In this document: positions 5,809 to 64,000 of the stretch, one piece after another
Layout of the letters: every line of letters starts with the position of its first letter
Numbering within the stretch: the stretch's first letter is position 1
Assembly: GCF_004010195.1 (NCBI RefSeq)
Contig: NC_057749.1
Location: forward strand, 15,503,690 to 15,567,689
DNA: 64,000 bases
Source of the DNA: Chiloscyllium plagiosum
Taxonomy: Eukaryota
Direction of reading: 5' to 3'
Position numbers and translations under genes: made by a program
The notes under the pieces: model-generated
The model's input: only the letters and a program-made list of their open reading frames with translations
Database searches by the model: none
Told to the model about the DNA's origin: nothing

Positions 5809-6630
5809 TCTCCCTTGTGCAGTCCAAATTAAGTGACTCAGCTGATATGGTGGAGCAGGAGCTTGGTCCTGTCCCACTGTTTATCACTTTTACCATTTAT
5901 CAATGTCATGTTGGCACATTGTGGCATTTCAATAGACAATAGACAATAGATGCAGGAGTAGGCCATTCTGCCCTTCGAGCCAGCACCACCATTCATTATG
6001 ATCATGGCTGATCATCCTCAATCAGTATCCTGTTCCTGCCTTATCCCCATGACCCTTGATTCCACTATCCTTAAAAGCTCTATCCAACTCTTTCTTGAAA
6101 GTATCCAGAGACTTGGCTTCCACAGCCTTCTGGGGCAGAGCATTCCATACACCCACCACTCTCTGGGTGAAGAAGTTTCTCCTCAACTCTGTTCTAAGTG
6201 GCCTCCTCCTTATTTTTAAACTGTGTCCTCTGGTTCAGGACTCATCCATTAGCAGAAACATGCTACCTGCCTCCAGAGTGTCCAATCCTTGAATAATCTT
6301 ATGCATCTCAATTAGATCCCCTCTCAGCCTTCTAAACTCAAGGGTATACAAGCCCAGTCGCTCCAATCTTTCAGCATAAGATAGTCCCGCCATTCCAGGA
6401 ATTGACCTCATGAACTTACGCTGCACTCCCTCAATAGCCAGAATGTCTTTCCTCAAATTTGGAGACCAAAACTGCACACAATATTCCAGGTGCGGTCTCA
6501 CCAGGGCCCTGTGCAGCTGTAGAAGGACCTCTTTGCTTCTATTCTGAATTCCTCTTGTTATGAAGGCCAGCATGCTATTAGCTTTCTTCACTGCTTGCTG
6601 TACCTGCATGCTTACCTTCATTGACTGATG

Positions 6631-59340: not shown

Positions 59341-60899
59341 TCCATCACACTCCTGACTTGTAAAAGGTGCTTTGTATATGAACAGGTAATGGAGTAACAA
59401 GAGGTGAGGTCTTCCCTTTCGGAGTCCCTATGTACGCACTAGAATAATTGTGCTTGTATGCCATGTATATGCTAGAGTGCTCCTCTGTCTTTGTGTGTGT
59501 GTGTGTGAAAGCAGCAGTGGGTTTGGCTGTGGAGCTGCTCATAGTTGAAGCCCTCCAATACTTATCAATACTGACTGAGCCACCAGTAAAAGGCTGTGGC
59601 TGTAGAGAACCGCATCCAAACTTGAATGAGACTTTGAAGCGAAAATACGGACGAGATTCAGGATAAAGCACGGTTGCAAATTCACTATTTGATACCTGAA
59701 TTAAACTTATAGTTCACTGATCAACAAATTGTTTACATTTCCATACGGCGGCATGCAGTATTCCATCTAAAAAAACTGTACTAACTCAAAATACAACAGC
59801 GACTGAAGTAAATCCCAACCTTCGTTCATAGTCAAGAGAGACCAGTCCTTAACATACATTTACCGAAGTGTTCTGCGCGGTTTCTCCATATTTAACAGTC
59901 TCGTTCAGGGAGGCAAGGTATTTTTGAAGGTAGGCACTGGGCTCTGCAAAAATGGAACTGTTACGTTGTCAATAATGAACGGCATTAACTCGGAGCAAAG
60001 TGAGTTCACATATTCGCTCAGACAGTAGCATTGTTTGAGTTGGAATCTTTAGCAGAATTGTGGGGTTCAGTGTTGCTGCTAAACTCGGTGAGTTTGAGTC
60101 TCAGTCCAGAATCCGGAGCACATTTGGAAAGCTATCAATTCAATGGGGACATCAAGAGGGTTGGAGATGAACCAAAGCGCTAAACTGCGCTCGGTCTGCC
60201 TGCACAAATGGATGTGAAACATCCTGGGGCAATCTTCCAAGGAATGGCAAGAAAGTTCTCTCAGTTTCCAACCTGGTAATCTTTCCTCAACCACAGAAAC
60301 TGGTTTATTTATCACATTGGTGCTTATGGGACGTTCATTAGCTGAAACGGACAGATTCGCCAACTTCGAAATAAAAGGTCATTGGTTGCACGAATCCCTG
60401 TGGAAAATCCCTAGGAACAAAAAAAAATGCAAGCTCTTTCTTAATTGAACACCTTAAGGACGCTGTGTCCTCATTAAAAGTGAAAGATAGAACTCAACTG
60501 TAAAACCTTGGTGTACCCAGTGCCAAGAGTTCATTAAAACAGAACAAGTAGAGTGGATCCGAACCGATACCAATGGGAACTGCAACACCCCGCTAACAAC
60601 ACAGCAACATTACAGCACTTAGCACTGCCAGAGACATCAGAATGGTTGATTTAAATAAATAATTCAGCACATCAGGAATACAGTTCAGCATTTTTAGCTG
60701 CTTTAAATCTTTCCTTATACCACTCTTTTCTTCCTCTGACTATTAATCAAACCGCGCTTTTTAACAAAAATAACTTTTCAAACGCGAGTTACTTTCGGAA
60801 TGAGGCTTTGCAGTTGTTCAGACTTTCAGATTGAAATGTATCTGTGTTCCCCATCCACCCCCATCCCCCTTCATCAGACTGTGTGAAGACTAGTGTTGT

Positions 60900-61076
60900 G
60901 CGATTGGAGCTGGCTGATTTGGTCACTGCTGAGCGGGAGTGAACCATTTTTTGTTGTACCTTTCAACAATAACAAAAAAAAACTTCAATGTACCAATCGC
61001 CAAGGCTGAATAGCTCGCCGTTAAAACTGGGAGGAGCATGTGAGTGCTTATAGATCAGCAATGCTCTTCTATAAAA
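60900..61076 (+). promoter_or_regulatory. CART proximal promoter: paired inverted CCAAT boxes and TATA box
   Basis: GCGATTGG 60900-60907, CCAATCGC 60993-61000, TATAAAA 61070-61076 (~90 bp before the ATG, no intervening ATG). Confidence 0.7.
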
Positions 61077-61149
61077 AGCTGGGTCCCTGATTGAGAAGCC
61101 AAACGCTGTGAAACATTCCAAGTCTACTTCTGTTGAGGGTGAGCCTCTG

Positions 61150-61170
61150 TTCAGCACCATGGAGAGCGAC
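61150..61170 (+). promoter_or_regulatory. RE1/NRSE (REST/NRSF site) overlapping the CART start codon
   Basis: TTCAGCACCATGGAGAGCGAC versus consensus TTCAGCACCnnGGAnAGCGCC: both half-sites with canonical 2-bp spacing. Confidence 0.85.
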
Positions 61171-61302
61171 CGTCTACTCGCCGCTATCTACCTCTCTGTC
61201 CTTCTGTCTCTGGCCAGCGGCTCTGACAACTCGGATTTGGAGACCAGAGCCCTGAGAGACTTCTACCCCAAAGATCCATACCCTTCCAGCGAAAAGGAAC
61301 TG
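61159..61302 (+). CDS. cartpt: Cocaine- and amphetamine-regulated transcript prepropeptide, coding exon 1 (signal peptide + N-terminal propeptide)
   Basis: MESDRLLAAIYLSVLLSLASGSDNSDLETRALRDFYPKDPYPSSEKEL; Kozak accATGg; phase-0 donor CTG|gtcagt at 61303. Confidence 0.95.
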
Positions 61303-61424
61303 GTCAGTATTATATCCTCTTTTTTATTTCCTTAACTAACGGTTTCTTGGGTGTGCCTAACAGAAGGAGACAGATGAGGTACTGTTTAACGTTCATAGTC
61401 ATTAGTGTGAACATTTGGCAACAT

Positions 61425-61525
61425 AAAAGCAGCTAGCTGTGGATGCTGGGAACCTGAAATTAAAAACAGACACTCAGCAAGTCTGGCAGCATCTGTGAGG
61501 AGAGAGAGAGAAAAAACAGAGTTCT
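61425..61525 (-). mobile_element. Penelope-like 3' UTR remnant in CART intron 1
   Basis: gatgctgggaacctgaaattaaaaacaga...ctcagcaagtctggcagcatctgtg as at 47160-47250. Confidence 0.6.
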
Positions 61526-61963
61526 GTTACCGTTTGCCTATTGAATGTGCCTTTGTTTTAAAGAAATTTGTCGAAGATGTTGATCTGACCCTTTTTTTAA
61601 AGAAAAAGACATTGAAAGTTTTAAGCACAACGATTATTTGAAGTGAGCAAACACCTGAGTAAAGGGATTGGAGATGGAGGGCACGAAATTCCCACCATGA
61701 CAGCGTGTGAGGGGTAACTTCAATGGATTCAGTCAGTTTCTTGATGAGTCGGTGGGTGGTTTTTTTTGGGGGGGGGGGGGTGCGTGTTAAAATGTTGTAG
61801 GAAGCATTCCATTTGGCTCAGATATTATGGCAGTCCTGTGATCCCAATAATTCGTGGAGGAGTTCCGACTCCATTTCAGGTTCTTGTACTCAAGCCAATT
61901 CGATAAAAATGCTTTAAACGGCTGATTTATTTATTTTTTAATGTGACCTGGTTTGGCCCACAG

Positions 61964-62047
61964 CTCGGAGCACTGCAAGAAGTCTTGGAAAAACTGCAGA
62001 CGAAACGGCTCCCCGCCTGGGAAAAGAAGTTTGGACAAGTCCCACTG
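61964..62047 (+). CDS. cartpt: CART prepropeptide, coding exon 2 (84 nt); gene incomplete in window
   Basis: cag|LGALQEVLEKLQTKRLPAWEKKFGQVPL|gtaacg; KR and KK convertase sites; matches vertebrate CART exon 2 (…ALQEVL.KL..KR.P..EKK.GQVP.). Confidence 0.97.
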
Positions 62048-63812
62048 GTAACGTCAACCTGCTGTGGCTCTGTTCTTTCTATTCTAGTCCTTGTAGTGTC
62101 CTGGGGGTTGCAGAGGGAGTGAGAGAGAGCAAGAGAGAGAGAGAAAGAGAGATGTCCTTTTTGTTTTTCGAATAGGAGATCGGCCAGCGGCCGAGTTACT
62201 GCCTGAGGGAAAGGCACTGTCAACATTTGAGGTGGGACTCTCCCGGTCCCAGAATCTACACCGGGCATCCCATATTCCCACTTGGTCACTGCCCTGTCTG
62301 TGCTACCTGTCTCCATCACAGAGTTTCTTCCCAAATCTTGTTGAGTTGCTTTTGGGAACTGGGACTGCATCTGGTGAGATAGAAGAGGGAATGGTCAGTA
62401 AATGGCCCTACCCAGTGACCTGGCTACCATGTCCGAAACACACATATCCCTTTATTAAACTGGTTATGGGATATTCCCACTGAGTGTCTGACGAGAATTG
62501 AAACAATTTTAATTCGGTTCTCCCATCAATCTGAGTCTGAGGGGAGCGGGGAGGTTGGTTTCACAGTTGAACCCCAAAGTCCAGGCTGTTCAAGATCTGA
62601 CTGACGGCCTCCCTGTCAACCCCCCCCCCCCCCTTTGAAACGGGATGAAATGATCAATTTACAGGAGAATTCACTTTCAGTTTGCACCCACCACGTCCCT
62701 TGGCTATTGCAAGGCATTGTCCATGGGAGGTGAGCGGAAACAACACCGGCACTTTGTGTCGATAACCTAGCGCCAGGACAATATCCTACCCACTCCGTAT
62801 GCGAGACAGCCGTCTCTCATTAACCTTGGAAACCTACAGCACTCCCTTCAGTCGTGCTGGTCGGCTTCAGCAATTGTAATCCTGCCTTGGGACTGTCTCC
62901 GCTCAGCGCTGACGGGAGGTAGGCACCAGTGTCTACATTGTCAATGGCCTGACTGTCATTGCATTCATGTAGAACATGAAAGGGTTTCCTACTGAGACCT
63001 GTATGACCCATTCTTTCCAGCTTTTTCGGAGATGTAGTTTCACCCACATAAAATCTTCGAGCTCTACAGCATGAAAACAACCTTTCGGTTTATCTCGTCC
63101 ATAATTAATCTATTCTTCACTCTATTCAGCACATTTGCCAGCAGACAGCAATCAGGCCATTGAATTATGTTTGCCTCCAACCCGCCTCATTTACAATTTT
63201 AGGGGAACATAGCCAGGTATCTGCGACCTGGGATTTGACTGCAGCGTCCCAGTGTTGAAAAAGGAGACATGGTCTGTGGTCCTGCTCCTTTCAGTTGGAG
63301 GAAGACCCCAGTGAACCACCGTACCAGCCAAGATTCACGCACCCACACACTGCCTAAAGCCCAGTGAGCATCCTGGGTGAGGAAGAAACTGCCCAGAGAG
63401 TAAATCAACATCCTTGCTGTTCTTTCTAGTAGAGTTCATCTTTTGGTCGTCATCATAATTTCTCCCCAAGATTGAGAGGTTCAGAATTAGGCAGTAATTA
63501 AATCATTGCCTTCTTCCAGTTTATCTTTACACAAAAGGTTTCTTAAAGGGACTGAAAAGTGTATTTGATAAAGTGCCATTGCGTGCACAAAGGAATTTTC
63601 TTGTTCAGTAATGACCTGGCTTCAGTAGCTCCAAACCTGCTGGAGATTTAAAAGATGTTGCTGGGAGAACTGAACGTAAATATTGCTGGAGACTTGCAGG
63701 AAACTGAAGAAATGACCAAATAAATAACAAAGGTAATCTAGACAAAATTTATCTCCCCTCCCTCCCCCCCAAAAAAATCATTGAAACATGGTCCTGTATG
63801 AAATAATCAACA

Positions 63813-64000
63813 CAGTGGCTCGGTGGTCAGCACTGCTGCCTCATAGCGCCAGGGACCCGCGTTTGATTCCCCCCTCGACTGACTGTAGAGTTCGCACATT
63901 CCTCCCAGTGTCTGCGTGGGTTTCCTCCGGGTGCTCCGGTTTCCTTCCACAGTCCAAAGATGTGCAGGTGAGGTGAATTGGCCATGCTAAATTGCCCATA
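63813..64000 (+). mobile_element. HE1-type SINE in CART intron 2, cut by the window end
   Basis: gtggctcggtggtcagcactgctgcctcatagcgccagggaccc...gtgtctgcgtgggtttcctccgggtgctccgg. Confidence 0.9.

What the first reader, a model, noticed from the sequence alone, without database searches (positions are those of the whole stretch)
61150..61170. REST/NRSF silencer (RE1) built around the CART start codon: one 21-mer is RE1, Kozak and codons 1-4
Seen: TTCAGCACC-AT-GGAGAGCGAC. The 2-bp RE1 spacer is the AT of ATG, the left half supplies the Kozak ACC, and the right half encodes (M)-E-S-D. Established: the RE1 consensus is TTCAGCACCnnGGAnAGCGCC, and mammalian CART is reported to be REST-regulated. From memory (to be verified), human CARTPT has a similar TTCAGAACGATGGAGAGCTCC at its ATG. 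Inference: the 'MES' N-terminus common to CART precursors may be conserved for REST binding rather than protein function, and this arrangement may predate the shark/bony-vertebrate split.
Basis: partly seen in the sequence, partly recalled or inferred. Interest (0 to 1): 0.8.

Follow-up and report, generated by a model that had tools for sequence, protein, structure and literature searches.

The report
REST silencer over CART start codon
A 21-base docking site for REST, the protein that keeps nerve-cell genes switched off elsewhere, lies exactly on the start codon of a shark CART neuropeptide gene and of its two sister genes, an arrangement already known in mammals that is shown here to be very old.

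Summary
Its ATG (61159) is the start codon of a three-exon CART gene (Pfam PF06373), confirmed by spliced RNA contigs from related species.

The site is not chance. The 3.56-Gb genome holds 61 such sites against 0 for the reversed control.

The same genome has two more CART paralogues, and both carry the element in the same register. One has the identical 17-mer. The other has ACG in place of ATG. Anchored on the start codon, the 17-mer is the only conserved island: 15 of 17 positions are identical in all three genes, against 4 of 51 upstream.

A tree places the three genes in three families that are each shared with bony vertebrates, so the arrangement predates that split.

In a related species the only change inside the 21-mer is G>C at RE1 position 15, which turns Glu into Asp and GGAGAG into GGACAG.

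The arrangement itself is published: the mu-opioid receptor NRSE spans -9 to +12, and mammalian CART is a known REST target. The idea that "MES" is kept for REST is suggestive but unproven.

The parts
61070..61077 (+). TATA-like box (TATAAAAA) of the CART gene
   Evidence: Read. RNA-derived contigs of related organisms begin 32-35 nt downstream, at 61109 and 61112. It is a promoter element by position only.
61109..61158 (+). 5' UTR, minimum extent as seen in transcripts
   Evidence: Contig 9 of X18 covers 61109-61302 and contig 24 of X20 covers 61112-61301 without a joint. The RE1 therefore lies inside the transcribed region, about +40 to +60, and the TTCAG is not used as a splice acceptor in these transcripts.
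61150..61170 (+). RE1/NRSE 21-mer TTCAGCACC-AT-GGAGAGCGAC: left half 61150-58, spacer 61159-60, right half 61161-70
   Evidence: motif match. (genome-wide excess over the reversed control). (the only conserved block among the three paralogues). (the only difference in organism B is 61164 G>C).
61159..61302 (+). CART exon 1 coding part (48 codons; signal peptide and start of the propeptide); GT donor at 61303
   Evidence: Spliced contigs. Residues 1-22 match, letter for letter, the first 22 residues of the protein a source names CART-like of Chiloscyllium punctatum (P0208).
61303..61963 (+). Intron 1; holds a very high-copy repeat at about 61460-61547; no second RE1
   Evidence: The joint 61301/2 to 61963/4, GT..AG, appears in X18, X19 and X20. 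Summed depth reaches 870,309 in bin 61460-61503. There is no other match to the 21-mer at up to 3 mismatches anywhere in the window.
61964..62047 (+). CART exon 2 (LGALQEVLEKLQTKRLPAWEKKFGQVPL); GT donor at 62048
   Evidence: Pfam PF06373, 35.3 bits against a cut-off of 27. Contigs continue from 62047 into the exon 3 sequence (table 7). Exon 3 lies outside the window, at L009:3457-3564, which is 3457 bases past the window's end.

Best explanation
The 21-mer is a genuine RE1/NRSE, the binding site of the zinc-finger repressor REST/NRSF. It lies in the first transcribed 60 bases of a CART neuropeptide gene, so that its 2-bp spacer plus the next base form the start codon.

Proposed mechanism. In non-neural cells and neural progenitors, REST binds this element and recruits co-repressors: mSin3/HDAC through its N-terminus and CoREST-type complexes through its C-terminus. 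CART stays silent. Where REST is low, in neurons and neuroendocrine cells, the promoter is free to fire.

Shown here: the motif, its rarity, the genome-wide excess of its class, its exact register on the start codon, and its retention in three anciently separated CART genes of one shark.

Inferred: that REST binds it and represses. This rests on mammalian CART and on the mu-opioid receptor gene, whose functional NRSE has the same -9..+12 register.

Because the element overlaps codons 1-4, it probably adds a DNA-level constraint on residues 2-4 of the signal peptide. How much of the M-E/D-S conservation it explains is open.
For: 1. Motif.

2. The class is under selection in this genome, each count against the reversed control: 61 vs 0; 35 vs 0 for the GGAGAG variant; 1205 vs 358 for the loose 16-mer.

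3. The target gene is a neuropeptide gene: Pfam CART, spliced transcripts, and orthologues named CART by their sources.

4. Paralogue footprint.
- CART B (contig C2) has TTCAGCACCATGGAGAG at its ATG.
- CART C (C40, 111 kb upstream of this site) has TTCAGGACCACGGAGAGTTCC in the same place.
- Ungapped and anchored on the start codon, positions identical in all three genes are 15 of 17 in the 17-mer, 4 of 51 at -60..-10 and 6 of 51 at +13..+63. A equals B at 17 of 17, against 12 of 51 upstream.
- The six upstream bases TTCAG(C/G) are explained neither by Kozak nor by coding.

5. The paralogues are old.
- The tree puts A with chondrichthyan 'CART-like' proteins (96/88), beside a clade holding the coelacanth 'CART-like' protein and ray-finned cart2.
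- B sits with shark and ray 'CART' (96/83).
- C sits with teleost cart-like/cart4 representatives (98/98).
- Synonymous sites are scrambled: 23 of 48 identical degenerate residues in exons 2-3 share a codon between A and B.

6. In organism B the only difference inside 61150-61170 is 61164 G>C, seen in a DNA run and in an RNA-derived run. It changes Glu to Asp but turns GGAGAG into GGACAG. Both are allowed at the S position of the published consensus.

7. The variant with G at position 6, as in paralogue C, is also over-represented: 57 vs 11.

8. Mammals. REST ChIP-seq peaks are assigned to CARTPT (two in human ES cells, one of them conserved) and to Cartpt (two in mouse, one conserved). Reviews state that REST controls CART.

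9. Precedent. In mouse, rat and human mu-opioid receptor genes, the NRSE plus an adjacent GC box lies at -9 to +20 from the ATG and represses transcription (PMC1702488, abstract and Figure 1 legend).
Against: - No binding or expression test was possible. The REST gene itself was not looked for in this genome.
- Part of the match is shared with other signals. ACCATGG is also the Kozak optimum, and GAG AGC is also protein-coding, so only about six bases (TTCAGC) are purely 'RE1'.
- Paralogue B has three mismatches in the 3' tail (positions 18, 19, 21). Paralogue C fails the strict 17-bp consensus at position 6.
- No second, intronic RE1 is present. If the mammalian 'dual NRSE' is promoter plus intron 1, as I recall but could not read, that part is not shared.
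- The Xenopus NRSE tables of PMC4430910 list no cartpt.
- Within-order comparison is weak. At about 3.6% divergence (16 differences and 1 gap over 444 bases, X17), an unchanged 11-base left half plus spacer is expected by chance.
- For organism C, only 4 of its contig's 8 differences are listed, so a hidden one cannot be fully excluded.
Confidence: 0.8

Rival explanations
1. The RE1 is real and old, but it is a passenger on the coding sequence. Residues M-E/D-S-S-R-L would be kept for signal-peptide or other protein-level reasons, and the RE1 needs only the six upstream bases in addition. REST would then not be what fixes 'MES'. This rivals the reader's inference, not the identification of the element.
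For: - Among the 85 of 120 listed CART proteins that begin M[ED]S, Arg5 (65 of 85) and Leu6 (46 of 85) are also conserved, although they lie outside the 21-mer.
- In fish proteins whose residue 2 is Q, R, H or P, the following SSRL is kept. Q and H have no codon beginning with G and would break the GG of the right half.
- E to D is the most conservative replacement at the protein level.
Against: - An acidic residue next to the initiator Met is unusual for a signal peptide's normally basic n-region (general knowledge, not tested here).
- Codon 2 is GAG in all three shark paralogues, while the rest of these genes use GAG 8 times and GAA 13 times. Codon 3 is AGY in all three, against AGY 8 and TCN 20 elsewhere.
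- The one verified Asp codon is GAC.
- Paralogue C keeps both half-sites although its ATG reads ACG.
Confidence: 0.45
2. Look-alike by coincidence. A strong Kozak context plus a conserved MES N-terminus happens to resemble an RE1, and REST does not act here.
For: ACCATGG is shared by Kozak and RE1. 11 of the 61 best RE1 sites of this genome have AT as spacer (my hand count of the list), so RE1s often contain an ATG in good context. Most of them are not start codons.
Against: - The exact 17-mer occurs only 13 times in 3.56 Gb, and two of those are at CART start codons.
- TTCAG(C/G) at -9..-4 is kept in three paralogues while the 51 bases upstream are at random identity.
- The motif class is 61 vs 0 over its control.
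- The mammalian orthologue is bound by REST at its locus.
Confidence: 0.08
3. The conserved block acts in the RNA, as a translation-initiation context or a protein-binding site at the 5' end of the mRNA, rather than in the DNA.
For: The block lies inside the transcript (contigs from 61109 and 61112) and surrounds the start codon.
Against: - In paralogue C the start codon itself has changed (ACG) while both half-sites remain.
- The block is a near-perfect match to a DNA motif that is over-represented genome-wide on both strands (28 forward, 33 reverse).
Confidence: 0.05
4. The pyrimidine-rich run ending in TTCAG is a 3' splice acceptor for an upstream non-coding exon.
For: All three paralogues show a Y-rich stretch plus CAG four bases before the start codon.
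Against: - RNA-derived contigs of two organisms run unspliced from 61109 and 61112 across the site to the exon 1 donor.
- A TATA-like box sits 32-35 nt upstream of those contig starts.
Confidence: 0.02

Closest known systems
NRSE of the mu-opioid receptor gene (Oprm1/OPRM1), Kim et al. 2004 (title seen in an abstract) and 2006 (PMC1702488; abstract, Methods passage and Figure 1 legend seen)
   Same: - It is a functional REST/NRSF element that straddles the translation start. NRSE plus GC box lies at -9 to +20 with the ATG as +1.
- The antisense cloning primer printed in Methods, 5'-GGCGCTGCTGTCCATGGTTCTGAA-3', carries the ATG inside an NcoI site between the two half-sites. The register is therefore the same as here.
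- The primer encodes Met-Asp-Ser.
   Different: - It is a G-protein-coupled receptor gene, not a secreted peptide gene.
- It cooperates with an adjacent Sp3-bound GC box. No such box was looked for here.
- It was studied only in mammals. Whether the shark receptor gene has it was not tested.
NRSEs of mammalian CART/CARTPT (Li et al. 2008, J Neurochem; Zhang et al. 2012, J Biol Chem, 'dual NRSE mechanism'); titles only seen, papers not held
   Same: - Orthologous gene family and the same repressor.
- Reviews say CART is under strict REST control (PMC10605157) and that REST antagonises CREB on CART (PMC4596026).
- ChIP-seq peaks are assigned to CARTPT/Cartpt in human and mouse ES cells.
   Different: - I could not read where the mammalian elements lie. 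That one is in the promoter and one in intron 1 is recalled.
- The shark gene in the window has a single element and none in intron 1.
- The window's gene is the 'CART-like' (cart2-type) paralogue, not the CARTPT orthologue. The CARTPT orthologue is the copy on contig C2.
Genome-wide RE1/NRSE sets of human, mouse and frog (PMC4430910; passages and supplement search seen)
   Same: Same 17-bp degenerate consensus. A comparable order of site numbers: 742 in Xenopus and about 4050 in human by that screen, against 1205 for the 16 specified bases here.
   Different: Those screens report distance to genes, not overlap with start codons. cartpt is not in the Xenopus table.
Transcription-factor sites inside coding exons ('duons'; recalled concept, no paper read here)
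   Same: One stretch of DNA is read both as codons and as a factor binding site.
   Different: Here the overlap includes the initiation codon and 5' UTR, and it can be followed through three gene families.

Membership tests
RE1/NRSE (REST-binding silencer element) | 21-bp bipartite motif: left half TTCAGCACC, 2-bp spacer, right half GGA(C/G)AGnnCC | tested here: met
   1 mismatch to the 21-mer. Exact match to the 17-bp consensus printed in PMC4430910.
RE1/NRSE (REST-binding silencer element) | Belongs to a motif population that is over-represented in the genome | tested here: met
   61 vs 0, 35 vs 0 and 1205 vs 358, each against the pattern read backwards.
RE1/NRSE (REST-binding silencer element) | Linked to a neuron- or neuroendocrine-specific gene | tested here: met
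   The element lies on the start codon of a CART gene. Tissue specificity in the shark was not tested.
RE1/NRSE (REST-binding silencer element) | Conserved beyond the neutral expectation | tested here: met
   15 of 17 positions are identical in three old paralogues, against 4 of 51 and 6 of 51 in the flanks.
RE1/NRSE (REST-binding silencer element) | Occupied by REST (ChIP, EMSA) | not testable with these tools
   Only indirect evidence: peaks assigned to human and mouse CARTPT/Cartpt. The peak position relative to the ATG rests on gene coordinates that I only recall.
RE1/NRSE (REST-binding silencer element) | Represses the linked gene when REST is present | not testable with these tools
   Needs reporter or knock-down experiments.
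RE1/NRSE (REST-binding silencer element) | A REST gene is present in the same genome | not tested
   No REST sequence from a tool was at hand to search with. The motif excess is the only hint.
CART prepropeptide gene (Pfam PF06373) | CART domain with six cysteines; three coding exons | tested here: met
   Exon 3 scores 69.7 bits and exon 2 scores 35.3 bits, against a cut-off of 27. The exon 3 peptide holds six Cys. Both exon junctions are seen in RNA-derived contigs.
Start-codon-straddling NRSE (mu-opioid-receptor type) | Left half at -9..-1, spacer = AT of ATG, right half = G of ATG plus codons 2-4 | tested here: met
   Register read. The comparator register comes from PMC1702488.
Start-codon-straddling NRSE (mu-opioid-receptor type) | Adjacent downstream GC box bound by Sp3 | not tested
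   The bases after the 21-mer here are CGTCTACTCGCC. No Sp-site scan was run.

The most novel reading that the evidence does not exclude
The RE1 has sat on the CART initiation codon since before the CART gene family split into its three families, which means before sharks and bony vertebrates diverged. On this reading the needs of REST, not of the signal peptide, fix residues 2-4 of CART precursors.

- The widespread alternation of Glu and Asp at residue 2 would be the G/C wobble of RE1 position 15.
- Ser3 would be held as AGY.
- Residue 4 would be mostly S, A, T or P because these are the NCC codons.
- In one shark paralogue the silencer would even have outlived the AUG, which now reads ACG in perfect Kozak context with the reading frame still open.

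This would be a roughly 450-million-year-old case of a transcription-factor site dictating protein sequence.
Probability: 0.3. Interest if true: 0.65.

Novelty: new member of a known kind. Interest (0 to 1): 0.4.

Why it matters
REST control of CART is known in mammals, and an NRSE on a start codon is known for the mu-opioid receptor. The element as such is therefore ordinary.

What this locus adds is depth and a clean natural experiment. Three anciently separated CART genes in one genome keep nothing in common around their start except this 17-mer. The substitutions seen are the ones an RE1 tolerates: G/C at position 15, and T>C in the spacer that removes the ATG.

That makes CART a good system for asking how far a transcription-factor site can constrain a protein's N-terminus. 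It also gives concrete codon-level predictions that anyone with the public vertebrate genomes can check in an afternoon.

Tried and rejected
1. Non-shark CART 5' DNA.
- A metagenome scan with a CART alignment gave 9 loci. Three are fish-like CART contigs (L028-L030), but they hold only exons 2/3 or exon 3, not exon 1. The other six matched only 14-20 residues and were not used.
- The genome-contig scan failed twice on form and was not pursued.

2. Representative-protein search. It returned 121 hits, many of them gene-caller fragments. Of the 50 that start with M and are 85-145 aa long, only 3 begin MES and 3 begin MDS. This list runs against the 'MES is common' reading. I set it aside in favour of the named, full-length proteins, because most rows are not real N-termini.

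3. Codon comparison of paralogue C with A and B. It was done without aligning a two-codon length difference, so it is meaningless and was dropped. Only A vs B is used.

4. Xenopus NRSE tables: no cartpt.

5. Earlier findings of this scan: nothing relevant.

6. Sequencing runs: no RNA holder is listed for the window's own organism.

7. Homologues of paralogue C's exon 1: none found.

8. Other RE1s with an ATG spacer used as start codons.
- Of the 11 other exact 17-mer sites, the 8 AT-spacer sites and the 8 sites read, only C13:27144784 opens a long ORF.
- That ORF is 81 aa and coiled-coil-like, with no Pfam family above cut-off.

9. A look-alike of paralogue C's element on C19 is followed by a 15-codon ORF and has no CART exons within 10 kb.

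10. Splice-acceptor reading of TTCAG: rejected by unspliced RNA contigs.

11. Literature for the position of the mammalian CART NRSE. Searches found no open paper that states it. Li 2008 and Zhang 2012 are not held. A recalled PMC id for a 2006 comparative NRSE paper was not held.

12. Novelty searches found no paper describing an RE1 on the CART start codon or its conservation in cartilaginous fish. Subscription journals are mostly not in the library.

Full report
**What is there.**
It is the only match in the 64-kb window even at three mismatches, where shuffles expect 0.01.
- It also fits the 17-bp degenerate NRSE consensus NTYAGMRCCNNRGMSAG exactly.

**The gene.**
- The ATG at 61159 opens exon 1 (61159-61302): MESDRLLAAIYLSVLLSLASGSDNSDLETRALRDFYPKDPYPSSEKEL.
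- Exon 2 is 61964-62047. Exon 3 lies 3.4 kb past the window's end (L009:3457-3564).
- Exons 2 and 3 score 35.3 and 69.7 bits on Pfam CART, against a cut-off of 27.
- Contigs from three runs of related organisms (X18, X19, X20; labelled 'RNA?' by the tool) skip 61302-61963 with GT..AG ends and continue from 62047 into the exon 3 sequence. They are therefore spliced transcripts.
- Two of these contigs start at 61109 and 61112, which is 32-35 nt downstream of a TATAAAAA at 61070-61077. The element thus lies at about +40 to +60 of the transcript, half in the 5' UTR and half in codons 1-4.

**Is it more than chance?** The window lies in a 3.56-Gb genome that can be searched. Each count below is against the same pattern read backwards.
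- The 21-mer at up to one mismatch: 61 sites (28 forward, 33 reverse) vs 0.
- The canonical left half with GGAGAG: 35 vs 0.
- The loose 16-base consensus: 1205 vs 358.

So an RE1 population is maintained in this genome, and the window's site belongs to its best-scoring class. Counting the list by hand, 49 of the 55 one-mismatch sites have their mismatch in positions 18-21, and 16 have it at position 20. The one mismatch here is of the commonest kind.

**The paralogue footprint.** The exon 3 peptide finds three CART loci in the genome.
- A is the window's gene.
- B is on contig C2.
- C is on the same contig as A, 111 kb upstream and on the same strand.

B's exon 1 (MESTRLCLLTLLGAALL...) starts within TTCAGCACCATGGAGAGTACT. 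That is the same 17-mer, which occurs only 13 times in the whole genome.

C has a TATA-like box. At the homologous place it reads TTCAGGACCACGGAGAGTTCC. Both half-sites are kept, position 6 is G, and the spacer reads AC, so the start codon reads ACG.

MAFFT finds no other conserved block in promoter plus exon 1 except the exon 1 donor. The ungapped comparison anchored on the start codon gives:

| Stretch | Identical in all three | A = B |
|---|---|---|
| 17-mer (-9..+8) | 15 of 17 | 17 of 17 |
| -60..-10 | 4 of 51 | 12 of 51 |
| +13..+63 | 6 of 51 | 19 of 51 |

The upstream figures are at random level. The six bases TTCAG(C/G) upstream of the Kozak triplet are explained by neither translation nor coding. 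G at position 6 is itself an over-represented variant in this genome: 57 vs 11.

**How old?** A maximum-likelihood tree was built from 52 CART proteins: the three shark genes spliced in the script, 36 named proteins and 13 unnamed representatives.
- A falls inside a chondrichthyan 'CART-like' clade (96/88). That clade sits beside one holding the coelacanth 'CART-like' protein and the sturgeon, gar, bichir and teleost cart2 proteins.
- B falls with shark and ray 'CART' (96/83), near tetrapod CARTPT on an unresolved backbone.
- C falls with teleost cart-like/cart4 representatives (98/98).

Each shark gene therefore has its own relatives in bony vertebrates, so the duplications predate that split. 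Between A and B, only 23 of 48 identical degenerate residues in exons 2-3 use the same codon, so silent sites are scrambled. The simplest reading is that the element was already on the start codon of the ancestral CART gene.

**Closer relatives.** A DNA contig of organism B (X17) covers 60859-61302 with 16 differences and one gap.
- The only difference inside the 21-mer is 61164 G>C, and the RNA-derived contig of the same organism (X20) shows it too.
- It is the third base of codon 2 (GAG to GAC, Glu to Asp) and also position 15 of the RE1 (GGAGAG to GGACAG). The published consensus allows exactly G or C there.
- Organism C shows no listed difference in the element, but only 4 of its contig's 8 differences are listed.
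- At this low divergence the unchanged left half carries no statistical weight.

**Protein-level pattern.** Two profile searches returned named CART proteins, and all 240 listed rows carry PF06373.
- List 1 (families A and B, best 120 of 691 hits): 78 begin MES and 7 begin MDS. Five more show MES after an annotated upstream extension.
- List 2 (family C, best 120 of 619 hits): 46 begin MES and 40 begin MDS. Fourteen more have an internal M[ED]S.
- Among the 85 M[ED]S proteins of list 1, residue 4 is S 62, A 5, D 4, T 3, Y 3, C 3, P 3, G 1 and one residue not printed. All the printed residues can be encoded as NNC, and most as NCC.
- In the three shark genes codon 2 is always GAG, while the rest of the genes use GAG 8 and GAA 13. 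Codon 3 is always AGY, against AGY 8 and TCN 20 elsewhere.

These facts fit a DNA-level constraint. Results that do not fit:
- Arg5 (65 of 85) and Leu6 (46 of 85) are conserved too, and they lie outside the 21-mer.
- Many fish proteins read M-Q/R/H/P-S-S-R-L. They keep SSRL although Q and H have no codon beginning with G and would break the GG of the right half.
- The unfiltered representative library gave only 3 MES and 3 MDS among 50 plausible-length rows, though most of those rows are fragmentary gene calls.

**What is known.**
- Reviews state that CART is under strict REST control in neuroendocrine cells, and that REST antagonises CREB on CART (PMC10605157, PMC4596026; passages). They cite Li 2008 and Zhang 2012, which are not held. 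I recall, but could not check, that their two elements lie in the promoter and in intron 1.
- Table S2 of PMC4499139 lists REST ChIP-seq peaks assigned to CARTPT in human ES cells: chr5:71014962-71015287, marked conserved, and 71015373-71015691 (hg19).
- The same table assigns peaks to Cartpt in mouse ES cells: chr13:99900529-99900745, marked conserved, and 99921358-99921568 (mm10). That the conserved peaks cover exon 1 rests on gene coordinates I only recall.
- The architecture has a published precedent. In the mouse, rat and human mu-opioid receptor genes, the NRSE with an adjacent GC box lies at -9 to +20 from the ATG and represses transcription (PMC1702488, abstract and Figure 1 legend).
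- The antisense primer printed in that paper's Methods has the ATG inside an NcoI site between the two half-sites and encodes Met-Asp-Ser.

**Rivals.**
- A pure coincidence of Kozak plus MES is unlikely, given the rarity of the 17-mer, the conserved TTCAG and the mammalian binding data.
- An RNA-level element is made unlikely by paralogue C, where the codon changed and the half-sites did not.
- A splice acceptor ending in TTCAG is contradicted by the unspliced RNA contigs.
- Gene conversion confined to 17 bases between loci on two contigs is not credible.

**Verdict.** This is a real, very probably functional RE1 of a known kind, on a known REST target family. New here are its presence on the start codon of all three CART families of a shark and the RE1-compatible pattern of its changes. 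No binding, expression or cross-class DNA test could be run.

Noticed in passing
L014:6237-6257 and 6246-6360 (G000:C40:15453595-15453615; 50 kb upstream of the window's first base): The third CART paralogue has ACG where the other two have ATG, in the context ACCACGG.
- From the ACG the frame stays open through exon 1 (115 nt), a phase-1 junction, exon 2 and a six-cysteine exon 3 (Pfam CART, 60.2 bits).
- There is no in-frame ATG between the upstream stop and the ACG.
- It could be a non-AUG start, a polymorphism or assembly error, or a very young pseudogene.
- No homologue of its exon 1 was found among annotated proteins.
   Followed up: partly
G000:C40:15453595 and 15564839 (window 61150): CART C and CART A lie 111 kb apart on the same contig and strand, yet fall in different ancient families in the tree. 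This is an old tandem pair rather than a recent duplicate.
   Followed up: partly
L018/L048 (G000:C13:27144784-27144804, minus strand): Another exact TTCAGCACCATGGAGAG whose ATG opens an 81-codon ORF (MESNKRLMQIIKDMRSDMKKLESENKALRVRL...). It is coiled-coil-like, with no Pfam family above cut-off. It may be a second gene with an RE1 on its start codon.
   Followed up: partly
window 61460-61547 (intron 1): A short stretch attracts thousands of contigs from every run laid (summed depth up to 870,309), with loose ends on both sides. It is a very high-copy repeat shared by the related species.
   Followed up: no
window 63800-64000: By eye this stretch looks like a tRNA-derived SINE head (cagtggctcggtggtcagcactgctgcctcatagcgccagggacccg...), a type I recall as common in shark genomes. 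No search was run.
   Followed up: no
G000:C43:10264063 and 10264842; G000:C41:390369 and 1342703: RE1 sites that come in duplicated copies with near-identical flanks: 779 bp apart on C43 and 0.95 Mb apart on C41. Some of this genome's RE1 sites therefore sit in repeated segments.
   Followed up: no
G000:C40:15783063-15783083: A second one-mismatch RE1 (TTCAGCACCACGGACAGCGAC) lies 218 kb downstream of the CART site on the same contig. Its neighbouring gene was not examined.
   Followed up: no
one search list, genome-wide: 11 of the 61 best RE1 sites have AT as spacer, where 1 in 16 would be expected (my hand count). These sites embed ACCATGG, an optimal Kozak start, yet almost none of those examined opens a plausible ORF.
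   Followed up: partly
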